Shown: positions 19,212-47,665 of the stretch, in pieces
How the letters are laid out: each line of letters begins with the position of its first letter
Position numbering within the stretch: the stretch's first letter is position 1
NCBI GenBank assembly: GCA_963668425.1
Contig: OY764332.1
Location: 460,336 to 524,335 of the forward strand
DNA: 64,000 nt
Reading direction: 5' to 3'
Source of the DNA: Minisyncoccota bacterium
GTDB taxonomy: Bacteria; Patescibacteriota; Minisyncoccia; Phycocordibacterales; JABAAK01
Notes under the pieces: generated by a model
Databases searched by the model: none
What the model saw: the letters and a program-made list of their open reading frames with translations, nothing else
Told to the model about the DNA's origin: nothing
Program-made: the position numbers and the translations under genes

Positions 19212-19454
19212 GAATTTGTGTTTAAGAAAAGCGATAAATTATAGGAACCTACAAGGGGCTTGATTTTTGTGTATAACGAGAAAAAAAGAACATTGCCCTT
19301 CAAAGGGCAATTTTCTTTGCACTGATCTTTTAACAATTAGCATTGCAAATAGCATGAGCAATTCGTTCATCAAATATTGATGAATAATTGGAACACAAAA
19401 ATAAAAAAAATAATAAAAATAAAGAACGTAAGCGGTTTTTGATTTCCTGTGAAG

Positions 19455-22440
<2,986 letters not shown>

Positions 22441-22567
22441 TTTACAGGAAATCAAAAACCGTTTTTTATTGAGTATTTTTATTGAGTACACTGATGAGTT
22501 GCTCATGCTATTTGCAATGCACACGATCGGACATAGTCCGAATTTTATAGACACAATACATTGTTTT

Positions 22568-22680
22568 GTTCTGGTGATGAAACCGGAGGGGAAACACCTG
22601 TTCTCATTCCGAATACAGCCGTTAAGGCCTCCAGGGGCGATGGTACTGCTTTATAGCGGGAGAGTAGCTCGTCGCCAGTA
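22568..22680 (+). rRNA. rrf: 5S ribosomal RNA
   Basis: Has a CCGAATACAGCCGTTAAG loop-C-like region and the helix I pairing CTGGTGA / TCGCCAG. Confidence 0.7.
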
Positions 22681-26829: not shown

Positions 26830-29800
26830 CTATTGTGCCAGGGTAGTGAAAGGTACTGGTATGCTTTTTTGCTCTTGTTGCCAAACATTGTCCACCCTAG
26901 GTATTACTTCTACAGCATATGCTGTATTTGATCGGAGTCCGTCTATTTTCTTATAGTTGGTAGATACAAACTGATACTGTGATGTATTGCTTTGGGCGCC
27001 TGTTTTCCACCACCTGACTGTGTACTGATCTGCCTTAGGTAGTGTTGGCCAGGTAGCCGTGGCGCTATCAGATGTGATAGATATTACAGAGAGGGAAATC
27101 TTCTCCTTCGCTATTGTATCATCATCATCTGCTATTGTTGTCGTTGCTGTGCCTTGGGTACTGGAGATTGTGTAGCCACTGCCAGCAGTTACGGTTACCG
27201 TTACCGAGCCGTCTGGTTCATCTACTTGGTCTCCATTCGCTGGGATGGTCAGTGTCGCTGTTCCACTTGTGGGGATAGTTACCGTCTGACTTCCAGCTGT
27301 TATACCATAGTTGCCACTTGCCGTAATTGATACCGTTACTGGCAGATCTGCTGTCGGTACTGGGCTCGCTGAGAGGGTGAATGTTGCACTGCTCCCCTCT
27401 GTTATACCGCCGTCAGTCCTGATACGTATCTCTGGGATGGAAGGCGTTACCCCATCATCATCTGCTATTGTTGTTGTTGCTGTGCCTTGGGTACTGGAGA
27501 TTGTGTAGCCACTGCCAGCAGTTACGGTTACCGTTACCGAGCCGTCTGGTTCATCTACTTGGTCTCCATTCGCTGGGATGGTCAGTGTCGCTGTTCCACT
27601 TGTGGGGATAGTTACCGTCTGACTTCCAGCTGTTATACCATAGTTGCCACTTGCCGTAATTGATACCGTTACTGGCAGATCTGCTGTCGGTACTGGGCTC
27701 GCTGAGAGGGTGAATGTTGCACTGCTCCCCTCTGTTATACCGCCGTCAGTCCTGATACGTATCTCTGGGATGGAAGGCGTTACCCCATCATCATCTGCTA
27801 TTGTTGTTGTTGCTGTGCCTTGGGTACTGGAGATTGTGTAGCCACTGCCAGCAGTTACGGTTACCGTTACCGAGCCGTCTGGTTCATCTACTTGGTCTCC
27901 ATTCGCTGGGATGGTCAGTGTCGCTGTTCCACTTGTGGGGATAGTTACCGTCTGACTTCCAGCTGTTATACCATAGTTGCCACTTGCCGTAATTGATACC
28001 GTTACTGGCAGATCTGCTGTCGGTACTGGGCTCGCTGAGAGGGTGAATGTTGCACTGCTCCCCTCTGTTATACCGCCGTCAGTCCTGATACGTATCTCTG
28101 GGATGGAAGGCGTTACCCCATCATCATCTGCTATTGTTGTTGTTGCTGTGCCTTGGGTACTGGAGATTGTGTAGCCACTGCCAGCAGTTACGGTTACCGT
28201 TACCGAGCCGTCTGGTTCATCTACTTGGTCTCCATTCGCTGGGATGGTCAGTGTCGCTGTTCCACTTGTGGGGATAGTTACCGTCTGACTTCCAGCTGTT
28301 ATACCATAGTTGCCACTTGCCGTAATTGATACCGTTACTGGCAGATCTGCTGTCGGTACTGGGCTCGCTGAGAGGGTGAATGTTGCACTGCTCCCCTCTG
28401 TTATACCGCCGTCAGTCCTGATACGTATCTCTGGGATGGAAGGCGTTACCCCATCATCATCTGCTATTGTTGTTGTTGCTGTGCCTTGGGTACTGGAGAT
28501 TGTGTAGCCACTGCCAGCAGTTACGGTTACCGTTACCGAGCCGTCTGGTTCATCTACTTGGTCTCCATTCGCTGGGATGGTCAGTGTCGCTGTTCCACTT
28601 GTGGGGATAGTTACCGTCTGACTTCCAGCTGTTATACCATAGTTGCCACTTGCCGTAATTGATACCGTTACTGGCAGATCTGCTGTCGGTACTGGGCTCG
28701 CTGAGAGGGTGAATGTTGCACTGCTCCCCTCTGTTATACCGCCGTCAGTCCTGATACGTATCTCTGGGATGGAAGGCGTTACCCCATCATCATCTGCTAT
28801 TGTTGTTGTTGCTGTGCCTTGGGTACTGGAGATTGTGTAGCCACTGCCAGCAGTTACGGTTACCGTTACCGAGCCGTCTGGTTCATCTACTTGGTCTCCA
28901 TTCGCTGGGATGGTCAGTGTCGCTGTTCCACTTGTGGGGATAGTTACCGTCTGACTTCCAGCTGTTATACCATAGTTGCCACTTGCCGTAATTGATACCG
29001 TTACTGGCAGATCTGCTGTCGGTACTGGGCTCGCTGAGAGGGTGAATGTTGCACTGCTCCCCTCTGTTATACCGCCGTCAGTCCTGATACGTATCTCTGG
29101 GATGGAAGGCACTGGATCATTGTGAGAGAGTAGTATGATACGTGGTATTGTTGGTTCTACTTGGTATAAGTCAGGACGAGTCGTAGCAAACCCGTTAGGT
29201 GTTCGTACCACAATATACTGTAAGGCGTCAAGATCGGGAAAGGTGATTTTTTGAGCATCGGCTTCCATTGTGAGTACCTCTGAGTCAGACCCAGATTTAG
29301 TTTTTGGCTCTATGGTCAGAGGGAAATCCCGTTTCCGACTGATAAACAGGTATTGCTTTTGTTTGTTAATTGTTATATGCAATGAGTCATCATCTATATG
29401 TTTGATGGCTAAGATATTATGGGCGGGGTCTATCGTTATTCCGGGCAGGTTGCCGATCAAGGATAGGGTGGCTGTTGCTGCGGCGTCCTGCTCTACCTTA
29501 TTGTCGTCTTTGGTTTCTATCTCGATGTAACCGCGATTTTCTCCTATCTGCATTTGTTCCACTTTCCATTCGATGTCATGATCGGCAGGTTCAGGATCGG
29601 AGTTTTGAGGGATGATAATGAAATTTCCTGCCGTGATGGTAAAGCCCAGCGATAATGTCTGTGTTGGAATTCTGAATGGAATTCGCCGGCTGGAAGTGAA
29701 ATATATTCGATATATCTGATTTCCTTCCGTAATGTTGACGGAAGGAGGTCCGGTAAGACGGATGGTGATGGGCGTGTCATTGTCTACTATCTGCACGGTT

Positions 29801-32800
29801 TTGTCATAGGTCTTGCCGTTATACCGTTCGTCAGTAGAACTCAGTGTAAATCTGATAATCACGGTATCCAGCTCGTTGGTGTCACTGTCTGGTGTCCCGA
29901 GAATGGAAATTGCTTCATCTGTATAGTCGGTTGGACTGAAAGTCAGCGGGCCTCCACTTATGGTGGCATGACTGCTGCCTGTGCTGATTGTTACCTGTGC
30001 TGTTACCTGTGCCGTTGGGGCTGAGTCCAAAGATACCTGCAATGTACCGGCGTTTTCCTCACCAATGTAAAAATCCTGATGCTCGTCTATTCCCTGAGGT
30101 GTTAGCGTTATCCACTGTACATGGTTGGAGGGATCAAAGAGGTACAAGTTGACAGGAGAACCTTGGGTCACTGGATCTGGGTTTCTCGTGTCTGTCTTAG
30201 TGAAGGACAGATCGCCAATAGTTACTGTTACTGCTTCAATGTCGGCCTCTATCGTACTGTCATCAGGAGCGTTTAATGTGAGCGTTGCAGTGGTTGCTGT
30301 GCTTGGGGCAAAAGACACAGTAGCATTGGCGGTGCCAACTCCTGTGTAGGTAACCCCTGCTGCTGCTGTCTCGGTTAGCGTGTAGTCAGTGCCTTGGTCA
30401 GCGTCGCCGGTAACAGTTACTGGCACAGTCAGTGCTTCTCCGGTTTGCAGTGGTCTGTTGAGGGTTAGGGTAATGATGGAATCCTCACCACCTTCAAGTA
30501 TGATTTTCCGCGAGGCATCCAATGTCACCTGTATTGGCTCGTCGTCAATGATGAGTACCGTTGCCGCTGCATTGCTACCGGTGGTAATGGCGGTTGGGCT
30601 GTTTGGTAGTTGATTGGCGTTGATAGTGATGGTGAACTGCTCGTTACCTTCGGCTAGATCATCATTAGGTATATTTGCAGAAAATGTGGCAGTGGACTCA
30701 CCTGCTTTGATAACGATTCCATTGTCGGCGAGGAGGAAGTCCGTTCCTCGGGTTGCGCCCTGTTCTGTGATAGTGATGGGTAGGGTGAGATCACTTCCCA
30801 ATGGTGCACTTAATGTAACCGTTGCTTCAAGCAGTCCAGATGCCTCGTTGACGACAAACATGTTTTTGGAGAATTGGACAGTTGATGTTGCTGGTGGGTC
30901 CTGAATGGTGCTGCTGTATATTGTGCCTTGAGCACCTCCGTGCAGGTTAACGCCGGAGGTTGTGTCTACATCAAGGGTGATGGTGATGGTTTCTGGCGCT
31001 GTCTCGGCGGTTGAGTCCGTCAATACTTGTAGGAATTCGTACATCTGTATATCGGCAATGCTATCTGTATTTTCCGTTGGATCACCTCCGGTAAAGGTGA
31101 TACTTGGACTGTTTCCATTAAAGTTGTTACATACCGCCTTCATATTTTTCAAATTATCAAATCGAGGACAGAGCAGTTTATAGTCCGTGCCGTAGGTTGC
31201 TGTCCCCCCGAAGGTGAATGGTATTGTTATCTCTTCAGGTGCGATTAACTCTCGACTGAGTGTAGTGTTGAACTGATAGATTCCTCCTTCTACTAGGTGC
31301 TCTGGGTTTCCACCAATTACAGGAGTTGCGGATATTAAGGTTGCCTGGCTGTCGTAAATTGGCAGATTGACGGAGTTGGCAGATCCTAAGGTGTAGACGC
31401 CATTGTAATGAGGATCAATGGTTACGGTAATCTGTCCGTTACCAGTGGCCGCTGGTTGGTCAATGCCGTCATTTCGTGTTTCTACCTTGATAGTGGCGGT
31501 GGTTGCTTCTGCAGGTATGGTGGCAGTGAAGAGTCCTGTTTTATCGTCGTCAATGTAGTCATGACCCGGTCCGTCAGTAACGCGATACTTTACTTCTAGG
31601 TCAATATCTGATGATTGGTTGGCGGTGATTGTGAATCTTGCTTCACCTCCTTCTACTACCTCAGTAGCACTATTCATAGGTGCGATGGTAAGCTCCACCT
31701 TTTCCCAAATAGACACACTTGACCCTTCGGTGCTTAAAAGATTCAGCCAACCGGGAAGATTGTTTGTTTGTATGGAGATCTCAAACATTTCAACATTCTC
31801 GTCAATGCTGTCTTTTGCAGTGGGTATTGTGAAGGTTTTTGATTGCTCTCCTTTGGTAAATTTGACTTGGTAAGGTCCTGCTGTATAGTCAGCTGGTGCA
31901 GTTGCGGTTTTGTCTTTGGTATTGACGGTGATGGTTACGTCTTCTTGAGCCGGTGCTGTGAGATGTAGGGTAACTTTTGCACCATCACCTTCACCAACTT
32001 CAAGATTTTTTCTACTGTCATCAAATAGTATTCCAGTTTTCTCTACCTGAAATACTGGAGTGATGCCGTAGAGGCGGTGCTTTGTCGTGTTAGAGGCAGT
32101 GTTGGAAGTGTTGGTATTGCCGATAGGATTGATGCCTGTGCCTGTTACTAACCCTACGGCTCCCCACAAGACCTGACTGGCTCCTAGTGGATTTGTGTTG
32201 TGTTTGGTGCCGTCGTCGTTGGAACCAGTCCACACGGTTATATGGTCTGGGGTTATGCGGTTGCCGGACTCGTCTCTTGGTAGGTTTTGCCGTAAGGGTT
32301 TCCAAGAGCCGTCGTAGAAGTCGGCGTAAGAGTCGGCGACTTTGTCGCCACTTACCCAGTAAATGGGGACATTGTCGTTGGTATCCTGCCATGTTGAGGT
32401 GTTGTTGTTCCACATAGCAGTGTTGTCACGAGCATCAATGGTGCTGGTGGATCCGACTATTTTTATGTTTGCTATTGTGTTGCTGTCTACCTCATCGTTT
32501 GTGAAGGCGTTGTTATTACCAGCGGCGGTCTGTACAAGCGTGTTATAGGTGTTACTATCTGTTGAGTCAGCAGTGTGCTGAGTGGAGGTGATGAATATGA
32601 GGCGGAACTTGTCGTCAGTGCCAATTCCATCGGGGATCAGGGATGAGCTTGGCTGAATCATAAATGGATTGCTCACACTCTGCGCTTCTGCTGGGGCTTG
32701 TGGTCCGAACAAAGATGCTAGTCCAATTGCCACAAGTAAGGCGAGTACGATTGCATAGTGAAATACGTTTTTACTTTGATTGAATACATGTTGATGTCTT

Positions 32801-32877
32801 GGTGTATGCATGATTCTATCTTTTATTATCACACGTTCGGCTTGTTGAATCAAGGTATTTGCTATATTTGCCATCAC
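26830..32877 (-). CDS. Giant (2015 aa) cell-surface protein with multiple Calx-beta-like beta-sandwich domains, six identical 111-aa tandem repeats and a C-terminal fibronectin-III-like domain
   Basis: An N-terminal signal/TM (AIVLALLVAIGLASLF) is followed by Calx-beta-like repeats (APADYTAGPYQVKFTKGEQSKTFTIPTAKDSIDENVEMFEISI). The six 111-aa copies each end ADDDG. The C-terminus (WPTLPKADQYTVRWW...NTAYAVEV) is FN3-like. Confidence 0.8.
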   Translation of the reverse strand: MMANIANTLIQQAERVIIKDRIMHTPRHQHVFNQSKNVFHYAIVLALLVAIGLASLFGPQAPAEAQSVSNPFMIQPSSSLIPDGIGTDDKFRLIFITSTQHTADSTDSNTYNTLVQTAAGNNNAFTNDEVDSNTIANIKIVGSTSTIDARDNTAMWNNNTSTWQDTNDNVPIYWVSGDKVADSYADFYDGSWKPLRQNLPRDESGNRITPDHITVWTGSNDDGTKHNTNPLGASQVLWGAVGLVTGTGINPIGNTNTSNTASNTTKHRLYGITPVFQVEKTGILFDDSRKNLEVGEGDGAKVTLHLTAPAQEDVTITVNTKDKTATAPADYTAGPYQVKFTKGEQSKTFTIPTAKDSIDENVEMFEISIQTNNLPGWLNLLSTEGSSVSIWEKVELTIAPMNSATEVVEGGEARFTITANQSSDIDLEVKYRVTDGPGHDYIDDDKTGLFTATIPAEATTATIKVETRNDGIDQPAATGNGQITVTIDPHYNGVYTLGSANSVNLPIYDSQATLISATPVIGGNPEHLVEGGIYQFNTTLSRELIAPEEITIPFTFGGTATYGTDYKLLCPRFDNLKNMKAVCNNFNGNSPSITFTGGDPTENTDSIADIQMYEFLQVLTDSTAETAPETITITLDVDTTSGVNLHGGAQGTIYSSTIQDPPATSTVQFSKNMFVVNEASGLLEATVTLSAPLGSDLTLPITITEQGATRGTDFLLADNGIVIKAGESTATFSANIPNDDLAEGNEQFTITINANQLPNSPTAITTGSNAAATVLIIDDEPIQVTLDASRKIILEGGEDSIITLTLNRPLQTGEALTVPVTVTGDADQGTDYTLTETAAAGVTYTGVGTANATVSFAPSTATTATLTLNAPDDSTIEADIEAVTVTIGDLSFTKTDTRNPDPVTQGSPVNLYLFDPSNHVQWITLTPQGIDEHQDFYIGEENAGTLQVSLDSAPTAQVTAQVTISTGSSHATISGGPLTFSPTDYTDEAISILGTPDSDTNELDTVIIRFTLSSTDERYNGKTYDKTVQIVDNDTPITIRLTGPPSVNITEGNQIYRIYFTSSRRIPFRIPTQTLSLGFTITAGNFIIIPQNSDPEPADHDIEWKVEQMQIGENRGYIEIETKDDNKVEQDAAATATLSLIGNLPGITIDPAHNILAIKHIDDDSLHITINKQKQYLFISRKRDFPLTIEPKTKSGSDSEVLTMEADAQKITFPDLDALQYIVVRTPNGFATTRPDLYQVEPTIPRIILLSHNDPVPSIPEIRIRTDGGITEGSSATFTLSASPVPTADLPVTVSITASGNYGITAGSQTVTIPTSGTATLTIPANGDQVDEPDGSVTVTVTAGSGYTISSTQGTATTTIADDDGVTPSIPEIRIRTDGGITEGSSATFTLSASPVPTADLPVTVSITASGNYGITAGSQTVTIPTSGTATLTIPANGDQVDEPDGSVTVTVTAGSGYTISSTQGTATTTIADDDGVTPSIPEIRIRTDGGITEGSSATFTLSASPVPTADLPVTVSITASGNYGITAGSQTVTIPTSGTATLTIPANGDQVDEPDGSVTVTVTAGSGYTISSTQGTATTTIADDDGVTPSIPEIRIRTDGGITEGSSATFTLSASPVPTADLPVTVSITASGNYGITAGSQTVTIPTSGTATLTIPANGDQVDEPDGSVTVTVTAGSGYTISSTQGTATTTIADDDGVTPSIPEIRIRTDGGITEGSSATFTLSASPVPTADLPVTVSITASGNYGITAGSQTVTIPTSGTATLTIPANGDQVDEPDGSVTVTVTAGSGYTISSTQGTATTTIADDDGVTPSIPEIRIRTDGGITEGSSATFTLSASPVPTADLPVTVSITASGNYGITAGSQTVTIPTSGTATLTIPANGDQVDEPDGSVTVTVTAGSGYTISSTQGTATTTIADDDDTIAKEKISLSVISITSDSATATWPTLPKADQYTVRWWKTGAQSNTSQYQFVSTNYKKIDGLRSNTAYAVEVIPRVDNVWQQEQKSIPVPFTTLAQ
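27115..29112. repeat. Six perfect tandem copies of a 333-bp coding repeat inside the giant surface-protein gene
   Basis: Five identical 65-aa shadow ORFs on the plus strand sit exactly 333 nt apart. The protein repeat VTPSIPEIRIRTDGG...TTTIADDDG is identical six times. Confidence 0.9.
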
Positions 32878-40058: not shown

Positions 40059-43000
40059 ATGGTGTACGATCCTGAAAGAATAGTAAGCATTGGGGAGCTA
40101 GAAAAACGAGGGAAGACCGTGCGTTTTGGTATTAAGGAAAAGGATAGGTCTCGGCATATTTATGTTATCGGACAGACGGGTACTGGTAAGTCAACATTGT
40201 TGGAGATGTTGGCGATGCAGGATATACGAAACGGTACCGGTTTGATTTTTATGGATCCGCATGGGCAGTCAGTTGAAGCATTGTTGCAATATGTAACACG
40301 GGACTATTTGGATAACATTATCTACTTTGCGCCACATCATCAGGAAAGACCGATTGGGTTGAATATTATGGAAGATATTGGCTATGATAAGCGGCATTTG
40401 GTGGTAAGTAGTTTGATGGCGTCGTTTGAGAAAATTTGGGGAGCTGGAACCTGGTCAGATAGGATGGCATACATTTTGCAGAATACGTTACTGGCGTTGA
40501 TTGAGTATCCTGGTACCACCTTGCTTGATGTTGGACGAATGTATAGTAGTAAAGGTTTTCGGGAGAAAGTTGTTGCTAACTTAAAAGACCCACAGGTGCG
40601 GAAGTACTGGGTTGAGGAATTTGCAAACTATACCGAGCGATACGCTCAGGAGGCAACACCATCTATTCAGAACAAGCTCGGTCAGTTTACCTCTAATCCG
40701 TTGATGCGAAATATTATTGGACAGAAGGACTCTGCGTTTAATTTTCGGGAGATTATGGATGAGGGGAAAATACTATTGGTGAATTTATCAAAAGGGCAGA
40801 TTGGTGAGAATAATGCACGAATGCTTGGTGTGTTGTTCACGACGAAGATTTATCTTGCCGCACTATCGCGAAGTAATATGACGAAGGCAGAGTTAGAGGC
40901 GGCGAATCCTTGTAATTTCTTTGTTGATGAGTTTCAGTCATTTGCGAATTCTTCTTTTTCTGATATTTTGTCTGAGGCGCGAAAATATAAGTTAAATCTG
41001 GTGATGGCGCATCAGTATTTAGGACAGTTATACTCTGATGACTCTGGTGGCGGAGATGTGATTCGGGATGCGGTGTTTGGTAATGTGGGAACCTTTGTAT
41101 CATTTCGGGTTGGTCCGGTTGATGCGGAGATTATTTCTAAACAATTTGCGCCGGATATTGCGGAGGAGGACTTGGTTGCGTTGCCACGGTATCATATATA
41201 CCTTACGTTGAATATTGATGGTGCCGGCTCTACACCATTTTCTGCAAGGACTTTTTATGAGCCAGCGCCGGAGAGTATGTCATTGGAGGATGAGGTTGTG
41301 CAGCGAACAATGGATGTTTACGGTGCTGATCGAGCGGCTGTAGAGAAATTGGTTGAGGATAATTTGGCGGAGGATGTTCAATCTAATGAAGTAGCAAAGA
41401 AATCTGGTGGACAGAAGGGTGGTGGGAAGAAATCTGGCTGGCAGCAGGGTGGTGGTGGACAAAGATCTGGCGGACAGAGGTCTGGTGGACAGAAGGGTGC
41501 ACATGGTGGTGACCGGAGAGATCTAGAGACCCATACCCCATTGAAGGGGTTGGTACAACAGATGATGCAGCGACCTGGGCAACAGAAGGAGGAGAAATCA
41601 AAAGAGCGAGGAGATGATGGTGAGGGATTTGTAAAAAAGAGGGTAGATGCGTCTGATCAGCCAAGGATGGATAGGTCAAAAGAACGTGTTGGGCAGAGGA
41701 GTGAAAGTAGGAGAATCCTGAAGAAGAAGGTGGATGTGTTGGAGCAGCGAGGAGCGAATGAGCCAAAGGAGCGTGTTGAGCAGAAGGGTGAGGTTGGAAA
41801 GGTTGTGAAGAAGGATGTTGCTATGTCAGTGACTGATATGCCGAAGAAAGGGCAGAGTGTCGTTGAGAGGTCAGAAGATGTTCGTGTTGTGGATACCCCA
41901 AAAGTACAGCACTCTTTTCCTGCAGAAGAACAGCGTAGGAGGCGAGGACGAGGGTCGGAAGGCGCTGCATCGGAGCGTGAACAGAATGACGACAGAAAAC
42001 GGTCTGCATCAAGTGGCAAGGTTCGTCGTGAAGAATCTGTTGCCATGCCGAGTCCTAATCAACAACGTACTCAGCGTAGGTCAAATCGTAGAGATGTTAA
42101 GCAGGATGATGGTGGTGGACAAAGATCTGGCGGACAGAGGTCTGGTGGACAGAAGGGTGAGGTTGGAAAGGTTGTGAAGAAGGATGTTGCTATGTCAGTG
42201 ACTGATATGCCGAAGAAAGGGCAGAGTGTCGTTGAGAGGTCAGAAGATGTTCGTGTTGTGGATACCCCAAAAGTACAGCACTCTTTTCCTGCAGAAGAAC
42301 AGCGTAGGAGGCGAGGACGAGGGTCGGAAGGCGCTGCATCGGAGCGTGAACAGAATGACGACAGAAAACGGTCTGCATCAAGTGGCAAGGTTCGTCGTGA
42401 AGAATCTGTTGCCATGCCGAGTCCTAATCAACAACGTACTCAGCGTAGGTCAAATCGTAGAGATGTTAAGCAGGATGATGGTGGTGGACAAAGATCTGGC
42501 GGACAGAGGTCTGGTGGACAGAAGGGTGAGGTTGGAAAGGTTGTGAAGAAGGATGTTGCTATGTCAGTGACTGATATGCCGAAGAAAGGGCAGAGTGTCG
42601 TTGAGAGGTCAGAAGATGTTCGTGTTGTGGATACCCCAAAAGTACAGCACTCTTTTCCTGCAGAAGAACAGCGTAGGAGGCGAGGACGAGGGTCGGAAGG
42701 CGCTGCATCGGAGCGTGAACAGAATGACGACAGAAAACGGTCTGCATCAAGTGGCAAGGTTCGTCGTGAAGAATCTGTTGCCATGCCGAGTCCTAATCAA
42801 CAACGTACTCAGCGTAGGTCAAATCGTAGAGATGTTAAGCAGGATGGAGAGGGTTCTGTACGGAATAGAGGGCAGCGACAGAAGAGGCAAAAGAACCATG
42901 GTGGAGGTGGTGGTCAGAGACATGCTCCCATAGATAAATTTGTTGTACGTACAGAGAAAGAGAAGGGTGGTTCTACAAGCAAGCAAGGAGTTTCTGCTGA

Positions 43001-43379
43001 CGTTAAGCAGGACGAAGCACGCGTAGAACAGCAGGTGAAAGAGAGGCGACCGCAACTTGCTGACGCTCTGCGACGACCAAATGGTGTTGTTGTTGGCACT
43101 GTTTCGCGAAGTATGGCGACACAGCAGTCAGTGACTGAACAACGTACTGAGCAGCCGGATGTCTCAGGTGGGCAGCAAGGCGCACAGGATGCAAAGCAGG
43201 AGCATTCTGGGAAACAGCAGCAGCGTGGGCATGCTGGTGGATTGGGTGATTTGGTAAAGACGACAAAGGCAAGCGGATTGCGAAAAGATTTGAAAGTTGC
43301 ACCGAAAAAAGAGAAGCATGCGCCGCCGATCAGATATGAGGAAGGGTGGTTTTCGATTGGGGATCTTGCCCGGAAGTAG
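40059..43379 (+). CDS. TraD/TraG/VirD4-like (type IV coupling protein family) P-loop ATPase without a TM anchor, with a long basic low-complexity C-terminal tail containing tandem repeats
   Basis: Walker A IGQTGTGKST, the MDPHG motif and Walker B FFVDEFQSF. The C-terminal 550 aa are rich in GGQRSGGQ and RR/KK. Confidence 0.6.
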   Translation: MVYDPERIVSIGELEKRGKTVRFGIKEKDRSRHIYVIGQTGTGKSTLLEMLAMQDIRNGTGLIFMDPHGQSVEALLQYVTRDYLDNIIYFAPHHQERPIGLNIMEDIGYDKRHLVVSSLMASFEKIWGAGTWSDRMAYILQNTLLALIEYPGTTLLDVGRMYSSKGFREKVVANLKDPQVRKYWVEEFANYTERYAQEATPSIQNKLGQFTSNPLMRNIIGQKDSAFNFREIMDEGKILLVNLSKGQIGENNARMLGVLFTTKIYLAALSRSNMTKAELEAANPCNFFVDEFQSFANSSFSDILSEARKYKLNLVMAHQYLGQLYSDDSGGGDVIRDAVFGNVGTFVSFRVGPVDAEIISKQFAPDIAEEDLVALPRYHIYLTLNIDGAGSTPFSARTFYEPAPESMSLEDEVVQRTMDVYGADRAAVEKLVEDNLAEDVQSNEVAKKSGGQKGGGKKSGWQQGGGGQRSGGQRSGGQKGAHGGDRRDLETHTPLKGLVQQMMQRPGQQKEEKSKERGDDGEGFVKKRVDASDQPRMDRSKERVGQRSESRRILKKKVDVLEQRGANEPKERVEQKGEVGKVVKKDVAMSVTDMPKKGQSVVERSEDVRVVDTPKVQHSFPAEEQRRRRGRGSEGAASEREQNDDRKRSASSGKVRREESVAMPSPNQQRTQRRSNRRDVKQDDGGGQRSGGQRSGGQKGEVGKVVKKDVAMSVTDMPKKGQSVVERSEDVRVVDTPKVQHSFPAEEQRRRRGRGSEGAASEREQNDDRKRSASSGKVRREESVAMPSPNQQRTQRRSNRRDVKQDDGGGQRSGGQRSGGQKGEVGKVVKKDVAMSVTDMPKKGQSVVERSEDVRVVDTPKVQHSFPAEEQRRRRGRGSEGAASEREQNDDRKRSASSGKVRREESVAMPSPNQQRTQRRSNRRDVKQDGEGSVRNRGQRQKRQKNHGGGGGQRHAPIDKFVVRTEKEKGGSTSKQGVSADVKQDEARVEQQVKERRPQLADALRRPNGVVVGTVSRSMATQQSVTEQRTEQPDVSGGQQGAQDAKQEHSGKQQQRGHAGGLGDLVKTTKASGLRKDLKVAPKKEKHAPPIRYEEGWFSIGDLARK
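41789..42850. repeat. About 2.9 perfect tandem copies of a 369-bp coding repeat in the coupling-protein-like gene tail
   Basis: Identical 106-aa shadow ORFs lie at 41857, 42226 and 42595, with period 369. A partial extra copy sits near 41455. Confidence 0.85.
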
Positions 43380-43564: not shown

Positions 43565-46500
43565 ATGGTTGAAAAAAGAGGTGAAAAGGTTTCCGATCGG
43601 GAGGAGCGGATATTGCGGTTTTGGCGAGAGAATGCGGTTTTTGAGAAAAGTGAAGGGCGAGAGAAGAAAGGTTTTTTGTGGCGTTTATTGCGAACAGTAT
43701 TCCCTAAAAGGCGATTTATTTTTTATGATGGTCCGCCATTTGCGACGGGTTTGCCGCATTTTGGTAACCTCTTGGCGAGTATTGTGAAAGACGCAGTGCC
43801 GCGTTATAAGACAATGCGAGGGTATCAGGTTTCTCGGCGTTGGGGGTGGGATTGTCATGGATTACCGCTTGAAGTGGAGATGGAAAAGAAGATCGGGACG
43901 AATACGAAACGGGATATTGAGGAGTATGGAATAGAGAAGTTTAATCGTGGTATTTGTGATACTATTTTTACCTATATAGATGAGTGGAAGAGGATTATTC
44001 CGCGAATTGGTCGGTGGGTGGATATGGAGCGTGATTACCGTACTATCAGTACATCGTATATGGAATCAGTATGGTCGGTGTTTCATCGGTTACATACACG
44101 CGGTTTTGTCAGTAATGGTTTCAAGTCGCTGTATTTTTGTCCGCGCTGTTCAACCACTATTTCAAATGCAGAAGTTGCTGATACGTATGAGATGTTGACT
44201 GATACAGCGGTGTTTGTACTTTTTCCTCTGAAGGATGATCCGGATACTTATTTAGTTGCGTGGACGACGACCCCATGGACATTATTTGGTAATGTTGCAC
44301 TTGGTGTGGATGTTGGTATGGATTATACGGTTGTTGAAAAAGATGGGAAAAAATATATACTTCAGAAGAGTGCAGCTGATGTTGTTTCTGGTGGTACCGT
44401 TGTTGGAGTGGAGAAAGGTGCTGCATTGCTTGGGAAGGAGTATGTGCCGCCGTTTGACCATCTCTATGTTGAGGATGGTGAGCAGGTGAAAGCGAAGTTG
44501 TGGCGTGTGCAAAAGGTGTCGTATATTGAGGAGGGGGTTGGCACTGGTATTGTGCATCTTGCTCCGGCGTATGGAGCAGAGGATATGGAGGTTGCACTGA
44601 GGGAAGGTTTGCCGATTCGGCATCATGTTAGCAAGGAGGGTGTTTTTGTCCCGCAGATAGAGGGATATGCCGGTTTGCGTCCTAAAGAGGTGGGGAATCC
44701 AAATGATGTTGATGAAAAGATATTGCAGGATTTACGGAATAAGGGTGTACTGCTCTATGATGAGGCAATAGAGCATATGTATCCGGTGTGTTGGCGCTGT
44801 AAGACACCACTTCTGAACTATGCTACAGATTCGTGGTTTGTGCATTCGGAGCGGTTTAAAGATCGTATGGTTTCTGAAAACAAAAAAGTCGTTTGGGTGC
44901 CGGCACATATTCGGGATGGTCGGTTTGGTAATTGGTTGGCAGATGCGCGTGAATGGGCGGTGTCACGGGATCGCTTCTGGGGTGCGCCGGTGCCAACGTG
45001 GAAAGTTGAAAAAACAGGTGCACATATCATCGTTCGTTCATTGGAGGATATGTGCAAGAGGATGCGTCCGAGAAATCGCTATTTTTTTGTGCGACATGGA
45101 CATTCGATAAGCAATGAAAAAGGTGTTTTGAACTGCAAAGAAGAGGAGGGTGATGGATTGACTGAGAAGGGAAGAGAGCAGGCGGTAGCAGTTGTACAAA
45201 AATTGAAAGATGTAAAGCCGACTGTTATTTTTTATTCACCCCTGGCTCGCACACGAGAAACGGCAATGTGTATTGCAAAAGAAACTGGTGCGCAGATGGT
45301 TGAGGAGCCGTTGCTGACTGAGTTGCAGGTGCCGAGTTTACATAATCGGTCAATACGCGAATTGTGGAGATCAGTTCATTCGCTTGATGCGTTTCGTAAT
45401 TTGGACAAATCTATCGCTGGAGGTGAATCATTTTTAGATGTGTATCGGCGAGTATTGCAATTTTTTGAAAAAGTAGATCAGGAATATAAAGATGCGAATA
45501 TTGTGGTGGTTACACATCGCTCGGTTGTTAACGCGGCACGCTCGGTTGCGCCGACACATGCGCAGTTTACGAAGCTGTATAGGAAAGGCACTGTGATCAA
45601 ACCAATTCCTAATGGAGGAGTGTGTAGCGTTCGGTATGTACATTTACAGAGGGACGAGAATGGGGAAGTTGATTTGCATCGGCCGTATGTTGATGGAGTG
45701 GTGTTGTATGATGTGGACGGCAATCCGGCGTATCACACCAAGGAGGTGTTTGACTGTTGGTTTGAGTCGGGTGCTATGCCGTACGGGTCGCATCATTATC
45801 CATTTGAGAATAAGTGGTCGTTTAATCCGATGTTGCAACGTGGCTTTCCGGCACATTTTATTTGTGAAGGGTTGGATCAGACACGTGGGTGGTTTTATAG
45901 CTTGATGGCAATTGGTGTTGGTGCGTTTGATCAGTCGCCGTATCGTAATGTGGTGGTAACCGGTCTGATTCGTGCCGCGGATGGAAAAAAGATGAGTAAA
46001 AGCTTGCAGAATTACACTGATCCGATGGAACTTGTTGAGCGCTATGGCGCGGATGCACTGCGACATTACCTTCTTGGTTCTTCAGTAGTGCGTGGGGAAG
46101 ATCTTGATTTTAAGGATGAACAGATTGATGAGATTTATAAGAAGGTATATACTCGGCTACATAATTGCCTTAATTTTTATATGATATATGCACATCTGCC
46201 GCATCTTGGAGGCAGCAGGAATGTATTGGATATCTATATTCATTCTCGACTTGCTCAAACTCGGAATGCGATGATGAAAGGGTTTGAATTGTATCATGTT
46301 GATGAGGCGGTCGCACCAATAGGATCATTTGTGGAGGATTTATCAACTTGGTATATTCGTCGTTCACGGGATAGGATAAAGAATCGGACGGATGACGGTG
46401 CGCAGGCGCGTGAGACATTGCGATTTGTATTGACTGAATTCGCGAAATGTCTTGCTCCGATTGCGCCATTTTATGCTGAATATTTGTTTTTGGAAATGCG

Positions 46501-47065
46501 GAAGCATCATCCGCATAAATTCTTTTTGCCAGAGAGTGTACACCTTGCGCGATGGCCACAGAGGATGTTGATTCAGAAGGAGGCGATAGAGAAAACTGTC
46601 GCGGTGCGTGATATTGCTTCATCTGTGCATGAACAACGAGCTGAGGCGGGGATAAAGGTGCGGCAGCCGTTGTCAAAGGTGATACTACAGCAGGAGGTGG
46701 ATGAAGGGCAGAAAGAATTGCTTAAAGCCGAGGTGAATGTTAAAGAGGTAATTGTTGATCCTGAGGCCGTGCGGTCTGTGGTACTGCATACTGAGCTTAC
46801 GGATGCGTTGCGTGCTGAGGGGTTTGTGCGGGAGTATATTCGTAATGTTCAGAAGATGCGAAAAGAGAAAGGATTTTCACCTACAAAAATGGCGGACACG
46901 TTATTTGTATGTGTGTTTGACGAGCAGAAAAAATATCTGCAGGATCATGAAGTGAAAATTAAGCAAGAGGTACAGGTGCGTTCTGTTGTGTACACTGAGA
47001 CAAGTCCGAAGGATGCTACTGTGTTTAGCATAGATCGTATGGAAGTTGTATCAGATATTGTGTAA
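43565..47065 (+). CDS. ileS: Isoleucine--tRNA ligase with an inserted histidine-phosphatase (PGM-family) domain
   Basis: HIGH-like PHFGN, KMSKS, and the editing and anticodon-binding domains are all present. A 190-aa module with RHG, SPLARTRETA and VVVTHRSV motifs is inserted in frame. Confidence 0.85.
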   Translation: MVEKRGEKVSDREERILRFWRENAVFEKSEGREKKGFLWRLLRTVFPKRRFIFYDGPPFATGLPHFGNLLASIVKDAVPRYKTMRGYQVSRRWGWDCHGLPLEVEMEKKIGTNTKRDIEEYGIEKFNRGICDTIFTYIDEWKRIIPRIGRWVDMERDYRTISTSYMESVWSVFHRLHTRGFVSNGFKSLYFCPRCSTTISNAEVADTYEMLTDTAVFVLFPLKDDPDTYLVAWTTTPWTLFGNVALGVDVGMDYTVVEKDGKKYILQKSAADVVSGGTVVGVEKGAALLGKEYVPPFDHLYVEDGEQVKAKLWRVQKVSYIEEGVGTGIVHLAPAYGAEDMEVALREGLPIRHHVSKEGVFVPQIEGYAGLRPKEVGNPNDVDEKILQDLRNKGVLLYDEAIEHMYPVCWRCKTPLLNYATDSWFVHSERFKDRMVSENKKVVWVPAHIRDGRFGNWLADAREWAVSRDRFWGAPVPTWKVEKTGAHIIVRSLEDMCKRMRPRNRYFFVRHGHSISNEKGVLNCKEEEGDGLTEKGREQAVAVVQKLKDVKPTVIFYSPLARTRETAMCIAKETGAQMVEEPLLTELQVPSLHNRSIRELWRSVHSLDAFRNLDKSIAGGESFLDVYRRVLQFFEKVDQEYKDANIVVVTHRSVVNAARSVAPTHAQFTKLYRKGTVIKPIPNGGVCSVRYVHLQRDENGEVDLHRPYVDGVVLYDVDGNPAYHTKEVFDCWFESGAMPYGSHHYPFENKWSFNPMLQRGFPAHFICEGLDQTRGWFYSLMAIGVGAFDQSPYRNVVVTGLIRAADGKKMSKSLQNYTDPMELVERYGADALRHYLLGSSVVRGEDLDFKDEQIDEIYKKVYTRLHNCLNFYMIYAHLPHLGGSRNVLDIYIHSRLAQTRNAMMKGFELYHVDEAVAPIGSFVEDLSTWYIRRSRDRIKNRTDDGAQARETLRFVLTEFAKCLAPIAPFYAEYLFLEMRKHHPHKFFLPESVHLARWPQRMLIQKEAIEKTVAVRDIASSVHEQRAEAGIKVRQPLSKVILQQEVDEGQKELLKAEVNVKEVIVDPEAVRSVVLHTELTDALRAEGFVREYIRNVQKMRKEKGFSPTKMADTLFVCVFDEQKKYLQDHEVKIKQEVQVRSVVYTETSPKDATVFSIDRMEVVSDIV
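45070..45650 (+). other. Histidine-phosphatase (phosphoglycerate-mutase-like) domain embedded in IleRS between the WGAPVP and DLHRPYVD blocks
   Basis: FVRHGHSISN (the catalytic His of the RHG motif), FYSPLARTRETA, GGESFLDVYRRV and IVVVTHRSVV appear in canonical order. Confidence 0.75.
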
Positions 47066-47089: not shown

Positions 47090-47665
47090 TTATTGGTGGT
47101 ATAGGGCGTTTTTGAGATGTTGTTGTAACTCTTTTTGTCGGTGTGGGTTGGCTATGGTTTCCTTGAGTATGTTTGTAAACTGAGTAGGTACGATATTTTG
47201 ATCGGGTACGTATCCGAGTGTAGTGAGTAGCATTACCTGCGCAATGAGGAGAATGTGTTGGACATGTGTTTGTTGTGATTTTTGAAGGAGTTCTGTTGCA
47301 GTTTCAACGGTATGAAACACATTTTCATCGTACGATTCAGTTATAGGGATGAGTGTTCGGAGACAGCGTAAGAGGGCAACAAATGCTGTATATTTTTGTT
47401 TATTATTCCATATTTGGTCGAGCGTGTTGGTGATGGTGATGTCTTTTAATATGGTGCGTCTGCTCAGTATTACAGAAACAGAAACACGGGCATACGGTTT
47501 GGCACCGCCTCGCATTTTTGCACCATCTTTACGGATTCCGCGTGCATATAGGTTCATAAGCCCATTTTCTTTTGTGAGTGCGGTGATTACTCTATCTGCC
47601 TCACCGGTTGCTCGGGTGTGGATGATGAATGCGTCTGTGGTGAGTATGGGGTATGATTTTAGCAT
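47090..47665 (-). CDS. recO: DNA repair protein RecO (putative)
   Basis: The N-terminal OB-fold region (ILTTDAFIIHTRATGEADRVITALTKENGLMNLYARGIRK) resembles the RecO N-terminus. The C-terminus is divergent. Confidence 0.5.
   Translation of the reverse strand: MLKSYPILTTDAFIIHTRATGEADRVITALTKENGLMNLYARGIRKDGAKMRGGAKPYARVSVSVILSRRTILKDITITNTLDQIWNNKQKYTAFVALLRCLRTLIPITESYDENVFHTVETATELLQKSQQTHVQHILLIAQVMLLTTLGYVPDQNIVPTQFTNILKETIANPHRQKELQQHLKNALYHQ

What the first reader, a model, noticed from the sequence alone, without database searches (positions are those of the whole stretch)
45070..45650. Isoleucyl-tRNA synthetase with an in-frame histidine-phosphatase (PGM-family) domain inserted in its catalytic core
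The 1166-aa ileS ORF is continuous. Between the conserved IleRS blocks ...WGAPVPTWKVEKTGAHIIVRSLEDM... and ...DLHRPYVDGVVLYD... lies a roughly 190-aa module. It carries all three hallmark motifs of the histidine-phosphatase superfamily branch 1 in the right order: RHGHS (catalytic His), SPLARTRETA, and the C-terminal VVVTHRSV (His of the HG motif). In ordinary IleRS this loop is only about 40 aa. A phosphatase fused into an aminoacyl-tRNA synthetase is not an architecture I recognise. It could hydrolyse a phosphorylated by-product or signal such as AMP derivatives, (p)ppGpp or Ap4A, dephosphorylate tRNA or protein, or have been co-opted structurally.
Basis: partly seen in the sequence, partly recalled or inferred. 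Interest (0 to 1): 0.85.

Follow-up and report, generated by a model that had tools for sequence, protein, structure and literature searches.

The report
Phosphatase domain built into isoleucyl-tRNA synthetase
The isoleucyl-tRNA synthetase gene in this candidate-phyla-radiation bacterium really does carry a complete histidine-phosphatase enzyme, with all its catalytic residues, spliced into a surface loop; the same pairing recurs across hundreds of related genomes, no paper in the searched library describes it, and its job is unknown.

Summary
ORF 43565-47065 (+, 1166 aa) is a type-2 IleRS. It scores 728.7 bits on TIGR00392 against a cutoff of 621.4. A 200-aa histidine-phosphatase domain (aa 499-698, window 45059-45658; Pfam His_Phos_1, E 1.7e-30) replaces a roughly 6-residue loop of the CP3 subdomain.

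It is not an assembly chimera. All 120 listed homologues (42-88% identity, from independent assemblies) carry the same domain.

Three further findings:
- Peribacteria/Peregrinibacteria carry two tandem copies.
- Other IleRS and ValRS carry the domain at other loops of the catalytic half.
- In Staskawiczbacteria-like genomes the same phosphatase is a separate gene directly upstream of an insert-less ileS (argS-phosphatase-ileS).

The phosphatase therefore appears functionally coupled to the synthetase, but its substrate is unknown. My best guess, at low confidence, is a nucleotide-type phosphomonoester, most attractively a phosphorylated tRNA 3' end. No paper describing the architecture was found. 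I rate it a new variant of a known kind.

The parts
43565..47065 (+). ileS: type-2 (eukaryote-like) isoleucyl-tRNA synthetase, 1166 aa, with an inserted phosphatase domain
   Evidence: ORF. TIGR00392 scores 728.7 bits, above its 621.4 cutoff. The best solved relatives are P. megaterium IleRS2 8c8u, yeast/Candida IleRS and T. thermophilus 1ile. AF2 model: pLDDT 92.1, pTM 0.86.
43757..43768 (+). HIGH signature motif, here HFGN (aa 65-68)
   Evidence: H65 and G67 are invariant in 105 homologues. The fourth position is N or S in the query's closest relatives and H in most others (HYGH in 83 of 114).
44261..44281 (+). CP1 editing-domain motif WTTTPWT (aa 233-239); GTGxVH at 44540-44557 and D340 also present
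   Evidence: W233, T234-T236, W238, G326, H331 and D340 are invariant. Sequence confirmed.
44972..45058 (+). CP2-CP3 linker and first half of CP3 (RFWGAPVPTWKVEKTGAHIIVRSLEDMCK, aa 470-498), ending at the insertion point
   Evidence: Aligned to 8c8u up to chain residue 476. CP3 definition from PMC7191050 and PMC7955072. Where the paper places the zinc-binding motif of T. thermophilus CP3, the query has no cysteine in either CP3 flank.
45059..45658 (+). Inserted histidine-phosphatase (branch 1) domain, aa 499-698
45092..45100 (+). RHG catalytic motif (R510, nucleophile H511, G512); N517 at 45113-45115
   Evidence: R510 and H511 are 114/114, G512 103/114 and N517 113/114 in full-length homologues.
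45248..45250 (+). R562, second phosphate-binding arginine (SPLxRTxETA motif)
   Evidence: 114/114.
45320..45322 (+). E586, putative proton-donor glutamate; the GGE621S motif lies at 45419-45430
   Evidence: E586 113/114; E621 and R629 114/114.
45515..45517 (+). H651, second catalytic histidine (VVVTH)
   Evidence: 114/114. The signature R-H-G-N-R-E-E-R-H is kept in 171 of 203 single-insert proteins (a further 20 have RHA), in 164 of 196 stand-alone relatives, and in almost all copies of multi-copy forms.
45659..45784 (+). Second half of CP3 and return to the Rossmann fold (NGEVDLHRPYVDG...DCWFESGAMPY)
   Evidence: Alignment to 8c8u resumes at chain residue 483. D703, H705, R706, P707 and D710 are invariant or nearly so.
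45989..46003 (+). KMSKS signature motif (aa 809-813)
   Evidence: K809 and K812 are invariant.
46229..46681 (+). Anticodon-binding domain (aa 889-1039)
   Evidence: Pfam Anticodon_1, E 5.3e-24.
46694..47041 (+). C-terminal tRNA-binding/junction region (DUF5915, aa 1044-1159)
   Evidence: Pfam PF19302, E 3.2e-13.

Best explanation
SHOWN. The gene encodes a functional-looking type-2 IleRS. Its CP3 subdomain carries a complete PhoE/PspA/GpgP/CobC-like histidine phosphomonoesterase domain with an intact active site.

The pairing is ancient and under selection in Patescibacteria. It occurs in five forms:
- a single CP3 insert
- tandem CP3 inserts
- inserts at other loops of the catalytic half of IleRS
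- inserts in ValRS
- a separate gene abutting ileS

INFERRED. The phosphatase is catalytically active and works together with the synthetase. Every observed fusion is an internal insertion in the catalytic half, and none is a simple N- or C-terminal fusion. That suggests it must sit near the aminoacylation/acceptor-end side of the enzyme.

MECHANISM I COMMIT TO (low confidence). H511 attacks a phosphomonoester on an adenosine-type ligand of the synthetase and forms a phospho-histidine intermediate. Water then hydrolyses that intermediate, with E586 acting as the acid/base. The most attractive substrate is a 2'/3'-phosphate or pyrophosphate on the terminal A76 of tRNA. Removing it would restore the diol that class Ia enzymes need for charging. 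This would be 'end-healing' coupled to aminoacylation.
For: Anatomy and the complete catalytic residue set.

Not an artefact: all 120 listed homologues at 42-88% identity, from independent assemblies (contigs up to 847 kb), carry PF00300. Thirty-seven loci from GTDB species representatives have the insert in one ORF, in frame.

Selection on catalysis: R/H/N/R/E/E/R/H are invariant in 113-114 of 114 homologues, while the domain as a whole has drifted to a median of 30% identity. The signature is kept in almost all tandem and multi-site copies.

Functional coupling to the synthetase:
(a) Stand-alone proteins of about 190 aa score as high on my insert HMM (median 160 bits) as the fused domains do (median 165). 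They lie directly upstream of an insert-less ileS in the conserved order pyrH-argS-phosphatase-ileS-x-recO. In a second lineage the stop and start codons overlap by 4 nt.
(b) The domain has been inserted at several different loops of IleRS: CP3, a loop after the WFESG motif, and a site before the anticodon-binding domain.
(c) It is also inserted in ValRS, at CP2, CP3 and after the WFSSG motif.
(d) 58 of the 150 best cluster representatives in a search of 1.84 billion proteins are embedded in IleRS or ValRS.
(e) No terminal fusion was seen.

Hints towards an RNA-end or nucleotide substrate:
- The stand-alone forms are very basic (median net charge +10, pI 9.6), and so is the query insert (+8, pI 9.5).
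- One IleRS (P0202) carries a P-loop kinase-like domain (AAA_18/AAA_33/Zeta_toxin-like) alongside the phosphatase. From my own knowledge, kinase plus phosphatase is the classic RNA end-healing pair.
- The CP2-CP3 linker just upstream of the insert forms part of the pocket where reveromycin A mimics the tRNA 3' end (PMC7955072).
- The fold has precedents fused to nucleic-acid or nucleotide enzymes: NCBIfam 'bifunctional RNase H/acid phosphatase'; the MutT1/Rv2985 Nudix-histidine phosphatase and the TFIIIC tau55 phosphatase domain.
Against: - To my knowledge, no member of histidine-phosphatase branch 1 is known to act on RNA termini.
- The fused domains as a group are not basic (median net charge -1, pI 6.5). 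The high pI of the stand-alone forms may only reflect Lys-rich proteins of AT-rich genomes.
- The kinase-like co-insert appears in a single cluster representative.
- I could not measure the distance or orientation between H511 and the aminoacylation or editing sites, because the tools return no model coordinates.
- It is unclear why only IleRS and ValRS would need a private tRNA-end phosphatase.
- CP3 is a topologically variable, insertion-tolerant subdomain, so position alone is weak evidence.
Confidence: 0.3

Rival explanations
1. The domain is a broad-specificity small-molecule phosphatase (PhoE/PspA/CobC-like, acting on a sugar, amino-acid or nucleotide phosphate). Its link to IleRS is only co-expression or stoichiometric tethering in a tiny genome, with no mechanistic coupling to aminoacylation.
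For: - The closest folds and sequences are all small-molecule phosphomonoesterases: PspA, GpgP, PhoE, the HFP riboflavin-pathway phosphatase and CobC.
- The best NCBIfam hits are CobC, archaeal dPGM and PspA.
- More distant stand-alone relatives sit in ordinary metabolic contexts: a cobalamin cluster, and next to a PFK gene.
- CPR synthetases tolerate other unrelated in-frame inserts. In P0174 the extra segment carries a sequence motif that looks like an IS200-type transposase; I did not run it against Pfam.
Against: - Mere co-expression would be achieved most easily by an N-terminal fusion, since the stand-alone gene already abuts the ileS start. Yet only internal insertions in the catalytic half were seen.
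- Repeated independent insertions at several loops, in two different synthetases, and copy-number amplification to 2-4 copies all argue for selection on physical proximity.
- The aaRS-linked clade is distinct. It scores 139-190 bits on the insert HMM, against 102-133 for the non-linked relatives.
- It reaches no curated functional family.
Confidence: 0.27
2. The domain is a phosphoprotein phosphatase acting in cis on the synthetase. For example, it could reverse serine phosphorylation of the KMSKS loop by HipA/HipT-type toxin kinases or by Hanks kinases.
For: - KMSK[S/R/K] retains a serine in nearly all homologues.
- From my own knowledge, HipA and HipT phosphorylate the KMSKS-loop serine of GltX and TrpS.
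- Tethering to the synthetase fits a cis-acting eraser.
Against: - The domain is structurally closer to small-molecule enzymes than to PGAM5, SixA or Sts.
- No kinase partner was seen in the neighbourhoods I examined.
- No IleRS-targeting kinase is known to me.
- The stand-alone form would have to act in trans.
Confidence: 0.1
3. The domain has a non-catalytic role. It could be a structural, dimerisation or allosteric ligand-sensing module, or a neutral or selfish insertion that the CP3 loop merely tolerates.
For: - CP3 differs in topology between IleRSs and looks tolerant of insertions.
- The insert evolves as fast as the most variable native domain.
- From my own knowledge, many relatives of this fold are obligate dimers, and the tandem copies could form an internal dimer.
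Against: - All catalytic residues stay invariant across sequences that are only about 30% identical in the domain. That pattern indicates retained chemistry, not a scaffold.
- Pfam finds no intein or other mobile-element domain in the protein.
- The +1 residue after the insert is Asp or Glu, not Cys, Ser or Thr.
Confidence: 0.07
4. The architecture is an assembly chimera or frameshift artefact joining a phosphatase gene to ileS.
For: None found. The window is presumably from a metagenome-assembled genome, so the question was reasonable to ask.
Against: - The same architecture, at the same junction, appears in 120 of 120 listed homologues from NCBI, JGI, ENA and Logan assemblies, including contigs of 490-847 kb.
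- It also appears in 37 GTDB species-representative loci.
- There is no compositional break across the insert.
- AF2 models the whole chain confidently, linkers included.
Confidence: 0.01

Closest known systems
Type-2 (eukaryote-like) bacterial IleRS, e.g. Priestia megaterium IleRS2 (8c8u/8c8v) and Thermus thermophilus IleRS (1ile)
   Same: - Same overall fold: Foldseek E 1e-85, TM 0.82 normalised to the target.
- Sequence E 1e-178.
- HIGH and KMSKS motifs, the CP1 editing motifs, the anticodon-binding domain and the DUF5915 C-terminal region are all present.
   Different: - 200 extra residues form a second enzyme inside CP3.
- The HIGH motif reads HFGN.
- Where T. thermophilus CP3 has its zinc-binding motif, the query has no cysteines.
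Small branch-1 histidine phosphatases: PspA phosphoserine phosphatase (4ij5), GpgP Rv2419c (6s2q/4pza), PhoE (1h2e), riboflavin-pathway HFP (9mmh), CobC (6e4b/6nru)
   Same: - Same catalytic residues: R, H, N, R, E and H.
   Different: - Only 19-26% identity.
- Below every curated NCBIfam cutoff.
- Has a clade-specific N-x-Y signature before the RHG strand.
- Embedded in, or encoded next to, a class Ia synthetase rather than a metabolic operon.
NCBIfam NF040702 'isoleucine--tRNA ligase, N-acetyltransferase domain-containing' (ileS_w_GNAT)
   Same: A curated precedent for an IleRS that carries an additional enzymatic domain (listed).
   Different: - The extra domain there is a GNAT acetyltransferase, not a histidine phosphatase.
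- The query scores 257.8 against a cutoff of 1999, so it is not a member.
- No equivalent curated model matched the phosphatase-bearing form.
Other multi-domain proteins with a branch-1 histidine-phosphatase domain attached to nucleic-acid or nucleotide machinery: RNase H/acid phosphatase (NF005567, Rv2228c-type), MutT1/Rv2985 (Nudix plus histidine phosphatase; 3fjy, 9cxx), TFIIIC tau55 phosphatase domain (2yn0, 6yj6)
   Same: The same phosphatase fold is fused to an enzyme or factor of RNA or nucleotide metabolism. From my own knowledge, tau55 is a precedent for a tRNA-related machine carrying such a domain with an unclear substrate.
   Different: Those are end-to-end fusions. Here the domain is inserted inside a loop of the partner's catalytic domain, sometimes in 2-4 copies.
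RNA end-healing enzymes (T4 Pnkp kinase-phosphatase; the HD domain of bacterial CCA-adding enzyme). A functional analogy only, from my own knowledge
   Same: The proposed role is the same: removing a 2'/3'-terminal phosphate so that a tRNA end becomes usable. P0202 combines a P-loop kinase-like domain with the phosphatase.
   Different: The folds are unrelated (HAD or HD versus histidine phosphatase). No activity has been tested, so this is a hypothesis and not a membership claim.

Membership tests
Isoleucyl-tRNA synthetase (TIGR00392 equivalog) | Whole-protein HMM score above the curated cutoff | tested here: met
   728.7 bits against a cutoff of 621.4, matched in two stretches that flank the insert.
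Isoleucyl-tRNA synthetase (TIGR00392 equivalog) | Class I signature motifs HIGH and KMSKS | tested here: met
   KMSKS at aa 809-813. HIGH is the variant HFGN, with H65 and G67 invariant and N at the fourth position in the query clade.
Isoleucyl-tRNA synthetase (TIGR00392 equivalog) | CP1 editing domain with its threonine-rich and GTG..H..D motifs | tested here: met
   WTTTPWT at aa 233-239, GTGIVH at 326-331 and D340, all invariant. T. thermophilus editing-domain structures match aa 208-407.
Isoleucyl-tRNA synthetase (TIGR00392 equivalog) | Isoleucine-specific aminoacylation of tRNA(Ile) | not testable with these tools
   Requires biochemistry. I also could not test whether the genome holds a second, insert-free ileS; none is present in the 64-kb window.
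Type-2 (eukaryote-like, mupirocin-tolerant) IleRS | Closer to IleRS2 and eukaryotic IleRS than to type-1; C-terminal DUF5915-type domain | tested here: met
   E 1e-178 to IleRS2 and 1e-168..-172 to eukaryotic IleRS, against 1e-55..-76 to type-1 enzymes (S. aureus, H. pylori, IleRS1). Foldseek gives the same ranking. PF19302 is present.
Acquired mupirocin-resistance IleRS MupA/MupB | NCBIfam exception-model cutoff of 1900 bits | tested here: not met
   581 bits (MupB) and 557 bits (MupA).
Histidine phosphatase superfamily, branch 1 (PF00300) | Pfam gathering score | tested here: met
   106.6 bits against 21.7, E 1.7e-30, aa 507-660.
Histidine phosphatase superfamily, branch 1 (PF00300) | RHG nucleophile histidine, two arginines, second histidine, and acidic proton donor | tested here: met
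   R510, H511, R562 and H651 are 114/114; N517 and E586 are 113/114.
Histidine phosphatase superfamily, branch 1 (PF00300) | Alpha/beta fold of the family | tested here: met
   [not shown]
Histidine phosphatase superfamily, branch 1 (PF00300) | Phosphatase or mutase activity via a phospho-histidine intermediate | not testable with these tools
   Requires an enzyme assay with wild type and H511A.
Cofactor-dependent phosphoglycerate mutase (dPGM) | Curated dPGM models; dPGM-specific substrate residues after the catalytic Glu and the H-G-N motif | tested here: not met
   [not shown]
CobC alpha-ribazole phosphatase / PspA phosphoserine phosphatase / SixA | Curated NCBIfam equivalog cutoffs | tested here: not met
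   CobC 80.7 against 162.9 and PspA 62.3 against 350. For the stand-alone relative, SixA scores 44 against 74.5.
Intein or other self-excising / mobile in-frame element | HINT domain; Cys/Ser/Thr at the splice junctions | tested here: not met
   Pfam finds only His_Phos_1 in the insert. There is no conserved Cys, Ser or Thr at +1; the consensus there is E/D-L-D-L-H-R-P.
Known anti-phage defence proteins (PADLOC) | Match to any PADLOC model | tested here: not met
   No family at E <= 0.01, for either the insert or the stand-alone relative.

The most novel reading that the evidence does not exclude
Class Ia synthetases (IleRS, ValRS) of many Patescibacteria may have acquired a third active site. 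This would be a histidine phosphatase that removes a 2'/3'-phosphate or pyrophosphate from the tRNA acceptor end and hands the repaired end to the aminoacylation site. Such repair-coupled charging could counter tRNA-end-modifying toxins or nucleases.
Probability: 0.18. Interest if true: 0.9.

Novelty: new variant of a known kind. Interest (0 to 1): 0.68.

Why it matters
Aminoacyl-tRNA synthetases are among the most conserved and best-studied enzymes. In bacteria, accessory catalytic domains other than editing domains are rare.

Here a second enzyme, with all its catalytic residues conserved, sits inside the catalytic domain of IleRS across a large share of the candidate phyla radiation. It has been inserted repeatedly: at several loops, in 1-4 copies, and also in ValRS. 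In some lineages it is kept as the adjacent gene instead. That pattern points to a selected, translation-linked use for phosphate-ester hydrolysis that is not part of textbook aminoacylation.

If the substrate turns out to be the tRNA end, the adenylate by-products or the synthetase itself, that would reveal a new layer of quality control, repair or regulation of tRNA charging in organisms with minimal genomes. It would also supply an assayable function for a large uncharacterised clade of histidine phosphatases.

A practical consequence follows. Automatic pipelines currently name many of these proteins only 'class I tRNA ligase family protein'.

Tried and rejected
1. Assembly chimera or frameshift. 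Rejected: the architecture recurs in every close and distant homologue listed and in GTDB representatives, and there is no GC break.

2. Intein or mobile element. Rejected: no HINT or other mobile domain and no splice-junction residues.

3. Glycolytic dPGM, CobC, PspA or SixA. All fall below their curated cutoffs, and the dPGM-specific residues are absent.

4. Defence-system component. No PADLOC hit.

5. Are all stand-alone relatives ileS-linked? No. The P0128/P0390/P0392 group sits next to rsmB-type methyltransferase genes (with PFK in one locus). P0395 is in a cobalamin cluster and is probably a true CobC. Only the higher-scoring clade (P0270-P0389, L043, L064) is ileS-linked.

6. The search for related loci with the insert-only alignment failed because no stretch was conserved enough. 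I used the full-length alignment instead.

8. Geometry. I wanted the distance and orientation between H511 and the synthetic and editing sites, but the structure tool returns no coordinates, so this stays open.

9. Literature. Eight full-text searches combined IleRS or aaRS with histidine phosphatase, phosphoglycerate mutase, CPR/Parcubacteria/Patescibacteria, the Pfam names, and tRNA dephosphorylation. None found a description. The library omits most subscription-journal papers, so absence is not proof.

10. A crude NJ tree of insert-masked IleRS suggests one large single-insert clade, a separate Peribacteria clade, and scattered exceptions. It is too weak to count gains and losses.
Full report

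The window holds one uninterrupted ORF, 43565..47065 on the + strand, encoding 1166 aa. Pfam finds the class I synthetase catalytic domain (tRNA-synt_1, E 1.2e-116) split into two stretches. Between them lies His_Phos_1 at aa 507-660 (E 1.7e-30, 106.6 bits, gathering score 21.7). Anticodon_1 and DUF5915 follow. The NCBIfam ileS equivalog TIGR00392 scores 728.7 bits, above its 621.4 cutoff.

There is no GC discontinuity across the region.

**2. Where exactly is the insert?**

The phmmer alignment to P. megaterium IleRS2 (8c8u) runs to query 498 / chain 476 and resumes at query 699 / chain 483. So about 200 residues (aa 499-698, window 45059-45658) replace a loop of about 6 residues.

Query residue 496 aligns with residue 495 of C. 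albicans IleRS. That residue lies inside the CP3 subdomain (residues 473-534). CP3 is a peripheral element whose topology differs between IleRSs (PMC7191050). In S. cerevisiae CP3 spans residues 459-526, and the preceding CP2-CP3 linker lines the pocket where reveromycin A mimics the tRNA 3' end (PMC7955072). The paper also reports a zinc-binding motif in T. thermophilus CP3. The query has no cysteine in either CP3 flank.

Its estimate of a 40-aa loop is too generous.

**3. Is the host enzyme intact?**

- KMSKS is at aa 809-813.
- The editing-domain motifs WTTTPWT, GTGIVH and D340 are present and invariant in homologues.
- The HIGH motif reads HFGN. H65 and G67 are invariant. The fourth position is N or S in the query's closest relatives, while 83 of 114 homologues have HYGH.
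- AlphaFold2 with a 105-sequence alignment gives pLDDT 92.1 and pTM 0.86 for the whole chain, with the insert and its linkers at about 90-97.
- The model superposes on IleRS2, yeast IleRS and T. thermophilus IleRS (Foldseek E 1e-69 to 1e-85).

**4. Is the insert a real, active-looking phosphatase?**

The insert modelled alone gives pLDDT 96 and pTM 0.92.

In 114 full-length homologues, R510, H511, R562, E621, R629 and H651 are invariant, and N517 and E586 are 113/114. Yet the domain as a whole has drifted to a median of 30% identity to the query, against about 57% for the synthetase core. That is the signature of selection on catalysis.

The domain reaches no curated functional family. CobC, archaeal dPGM, PspA and GpmB are all far below their cutoffs, so the substrate cannot be read from homology.

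**5. Is it an artefact or a one-off?**

Neither.

- All 120 listed homologues (88% down to 42% identity; sources NCBI, JGI, ENA, Logan; contigs up to 847 kb) carry PF00300 and are about 1150-1200 aa long. Their names point to Candidatus Kaiserbacteria, Pacebacteria and the Parcubacteria/Patescibacteria group.
- Twenty-seven Paceibacteria-type MAGs have a single insert at the same junction. They include Taylor-, Nomura- and Wolfebacteria and Minisyncoccia.
- Peribacteria/Peregrinibacteria have two tandem copies at that junction (L031, L032, L034, L035, L038, L047, L049).
- L033 has one copy in CP3 and another just before the anticodon-binding domain.
- Many other Patescibacteria (Falkow-, Uhr-, Morani- and Nealsonbacteria, and one Kaiserbacteria, L036) and non-CPR phyla have insert-less IleRS2.

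**6. How wide is the theme?**

I ran an exhaustive phmmer search with the insert alone against 1.84 billion cluster representatives. It gave 6452 hits at E <= 1e-3 and 216 at E <= 1e-10. Of the 150 best, 58 are embedded in IleRS- or ValRS-like proteins.

The architectures include:
- IleRS with two domains at different sites (P0127, P0132, P0139, P0140).
- ValRS with one to four copies, at CP2, CP3 or after the WFSSG motif (P0124, P0158, P0175, P0253). P0158 passes a valS equivalog cutoff, 848.8 against 704.
- One IleRS with the phosphatase plus a P-loop kinase-like domain (P0202; AAA_18/AAA_33/Zeta_toxin-like).

Almost all copies in multi-copy proteins keep the catalytic signature. I saw no N- or C-terminal fusion.

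**7. The split form**

In L043 (Staskawiczbacteria), a roughly 190-aa phosphatase with its own start and stop codons lies between argS and an insert-less ileS. In L064 (Patescibacteria UBA4067) a 195-aa phosphatase lies directly upstream of an insert-less ileS, and a Fic-motif gene separates it from argS. Its stop codon overlaps the ileS start by 4 nt.

The L043 protein has at least 298 relatives. In the three relatives whose contigs I looked up, the order pyrH-argS-phosphatase-ileS-x-recO is conserved. It holds even where a toxin-antitoxin pair and two other genes have been wedged in.

These stand-alone proteins score 139-190 bits on the insert HMM, the same as fused domains (median 165). Non-linked relatives score 102-133. 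They also share the clade-specific N-x-Y signature before the RHG strand.

Fusion in some lineages and tight operon linkage in others is classic evidence that two proteins work together.

**8. What does it do?**

The following is shown: an intact histidine-phosphatase active site, tethered to or co-transcribed with class Ia synthetases, under purifying selection.

The following is inferred. It is an active phosphomonoesterase whose function depends on proximity to the catalytic half of the synthetase. A read-through fusion from the adjacent upstream gene would be the easiest route to mere co-expression. Yet only internal insertions, at several loops, are seen.

I commit, with low confidence (about 0.3), to a nucleotide-type phosphomonoester as substrate. 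The most attractive candidate is a 2'/3'-phosphate or pyrophosphate on the terminal adenosine of tRNA. Removing it would regenerate a chargeable end.

Supporting hints:
- The stand-alone forms and the query insert are strongly basic.
- One IleRS carries a kinase-like co-insert.
- The insert lies close, in sequence, to the CCA-pocket linker.
- The fold has precedents fused to RNase H, Nudix and TFIIIC.

Against it:
- To my knowledge, no branch-1 member is known to act on RNA ends.
- The nearest structures are small-molecule enzymes.
- The fused domains as a group are not basic.
- I could not measure inter-site geometry.

The main rival (about 0.27) is an ordinary small-molecule phosphatase hitch-hiking on an essential gene. 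A cis-acting phosphoprotein phosphatase (about 0.1) and a non-catalytic role (about 0.07) follow. An assembly artefact is excluded for practical purposes.

**9. Comparison with what is known, and novelty**

The host is a member of type-2 IleRS, and the insert is a member of PF00300. Both memberships were tested and met. The insert is not a member of dPGM, CobC, PspA, SixA, MupA/B, inteins or any PADLOC family; all were tested and not met.

NCBIfam does curate an IleRS with a GNAT domain (NF040702), so 'IleRS plus an extra enzyme' is a known kind. No model or paper I could find covers the phosphatase form. The sequences themselves are in public databases under generic names.

I therefore rate it a new variant of a known kind: real, widespread and undescribed, with an open and testable function.

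**10. Limits**

- The literature library omits most subscription-journal papers.
- The NJ tree is too crude to count gains and losses.
- Whether these genomes hold a second ileS was not testable.
- No coordinates were available to check how the phosphatase pocket is oriented relative to the synthetic and editing sites.

Noticed in passing
window 41781-42846 (within ORF 40059-43379, +): A perfect 369-bp tandem repeat, 2.9 copies at 100% identity. It encodes a Gly/Arg/Gln/Lys-rich repeated segment in the C-terminal tail of a 1106-aa protein. That protein's N-terminus matches HerA (DUF87), TrwB/TraD-TraG coupling-protein ATPase domains. Perfect identity suggests very recent expansion or an assembly collapse/expansion issue.
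   Followed up: partly
window 19448-22680: The 23S rRNA (19448-22448) is followed by the 5S (22570-22680), but no 16S rRNA appears anywhere in the 64-kb window. The 16S is therefore not linked upstream of the 23S within about 19 kb.
   Followed up: no
window 43757-43768: The HIGH signature of this IleRS reads HFGN. N or S at the fourth position is shared by the closest relatives (HFGN in 14 of 114, plus HYGN, HFGS and others), whereas most insert-bearing IleRSs have HYGH. Altered HIGH motifs are the subject of solved P. megaterium IleRS2 mutant structures described as mupirocin hyper-resistant (8c8w). I did not explore the consequence here.
   Followed up: partly
L031, L032, L034, L035, L038, L047, L049 (Peribacteria/Peregrinibacteria ileS loci): IleRS of about 1465-1490 aa with two tandem histidine-phosphatase domains at the CP3 site, both with complete catalytic signatures. 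L033 has one in CP3 and one before the anticodon-binding domain.
   Followed up: partly
P0202 (IleRS, 1395 aa), residues about 728-902: A P-loop kinase-like domain (AAA_18 E 1e-7, AAA_33, Zeta_toxin, CPT-like) inserted after the WFESG motif, in addition to the CP3 phosphatase. It was seen in only one cluster representative.
   Followed up: partly
P0174 (IleRS-like, 1066 aa), residues about 326-442: An extra segment inside the editing-domain region. It contains the sequence '...MPDHVHLLLEV...', which looks like an IS200/Y1-transposase (REP-associated tyrosine transposase) motif. I did not check it against Pfam.
   Followed up: no
P0158 (ValRS, 1538 aa), residues about 598-865: A ValRS with two phosphatase domains also has a roughly 270-aa extra region with only a weak LPD13 hit (E 5e-4, below cutoff). 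Its identity is unknown.
   Followed up: partly
L081/L082 5678-6161; L064 1996-3000: Mobile or toxin-type genes are wedged into the argS-phosphatase-ileS cluster. In L081/L082 an RHH antitoxin plus a YafQ-like toxin sit between the phosphatase and ileS. In L064 a 334-aa ORF carrying a Fic-type motif (HPFFDGNKR) sits between argS and the phosphatase.
   Followed up: no
window 45059-45658 (insert) against PHROGs: The insert matches phage protein family phrog_12933 (unknown function) at E 7.4e-24 over nearly its full length. Some phages therefore encode close relatives of this phosphatase type.
   Followed up: no
window 26830-32877 (-): A 2015-aa ORF, the largest in the window. I did not examine it.
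   Followed up: no
window 47090-47665 (-): A RecO-like gene (RecO_N, E 2e-12) lies immediately downstream of ileS, on the opposite strand. In the Staskawiczbacteria-type loci recO also lies just downstream of ileS, but on the same strand. This is a trace of conserved synteny.
   Followed up: partly
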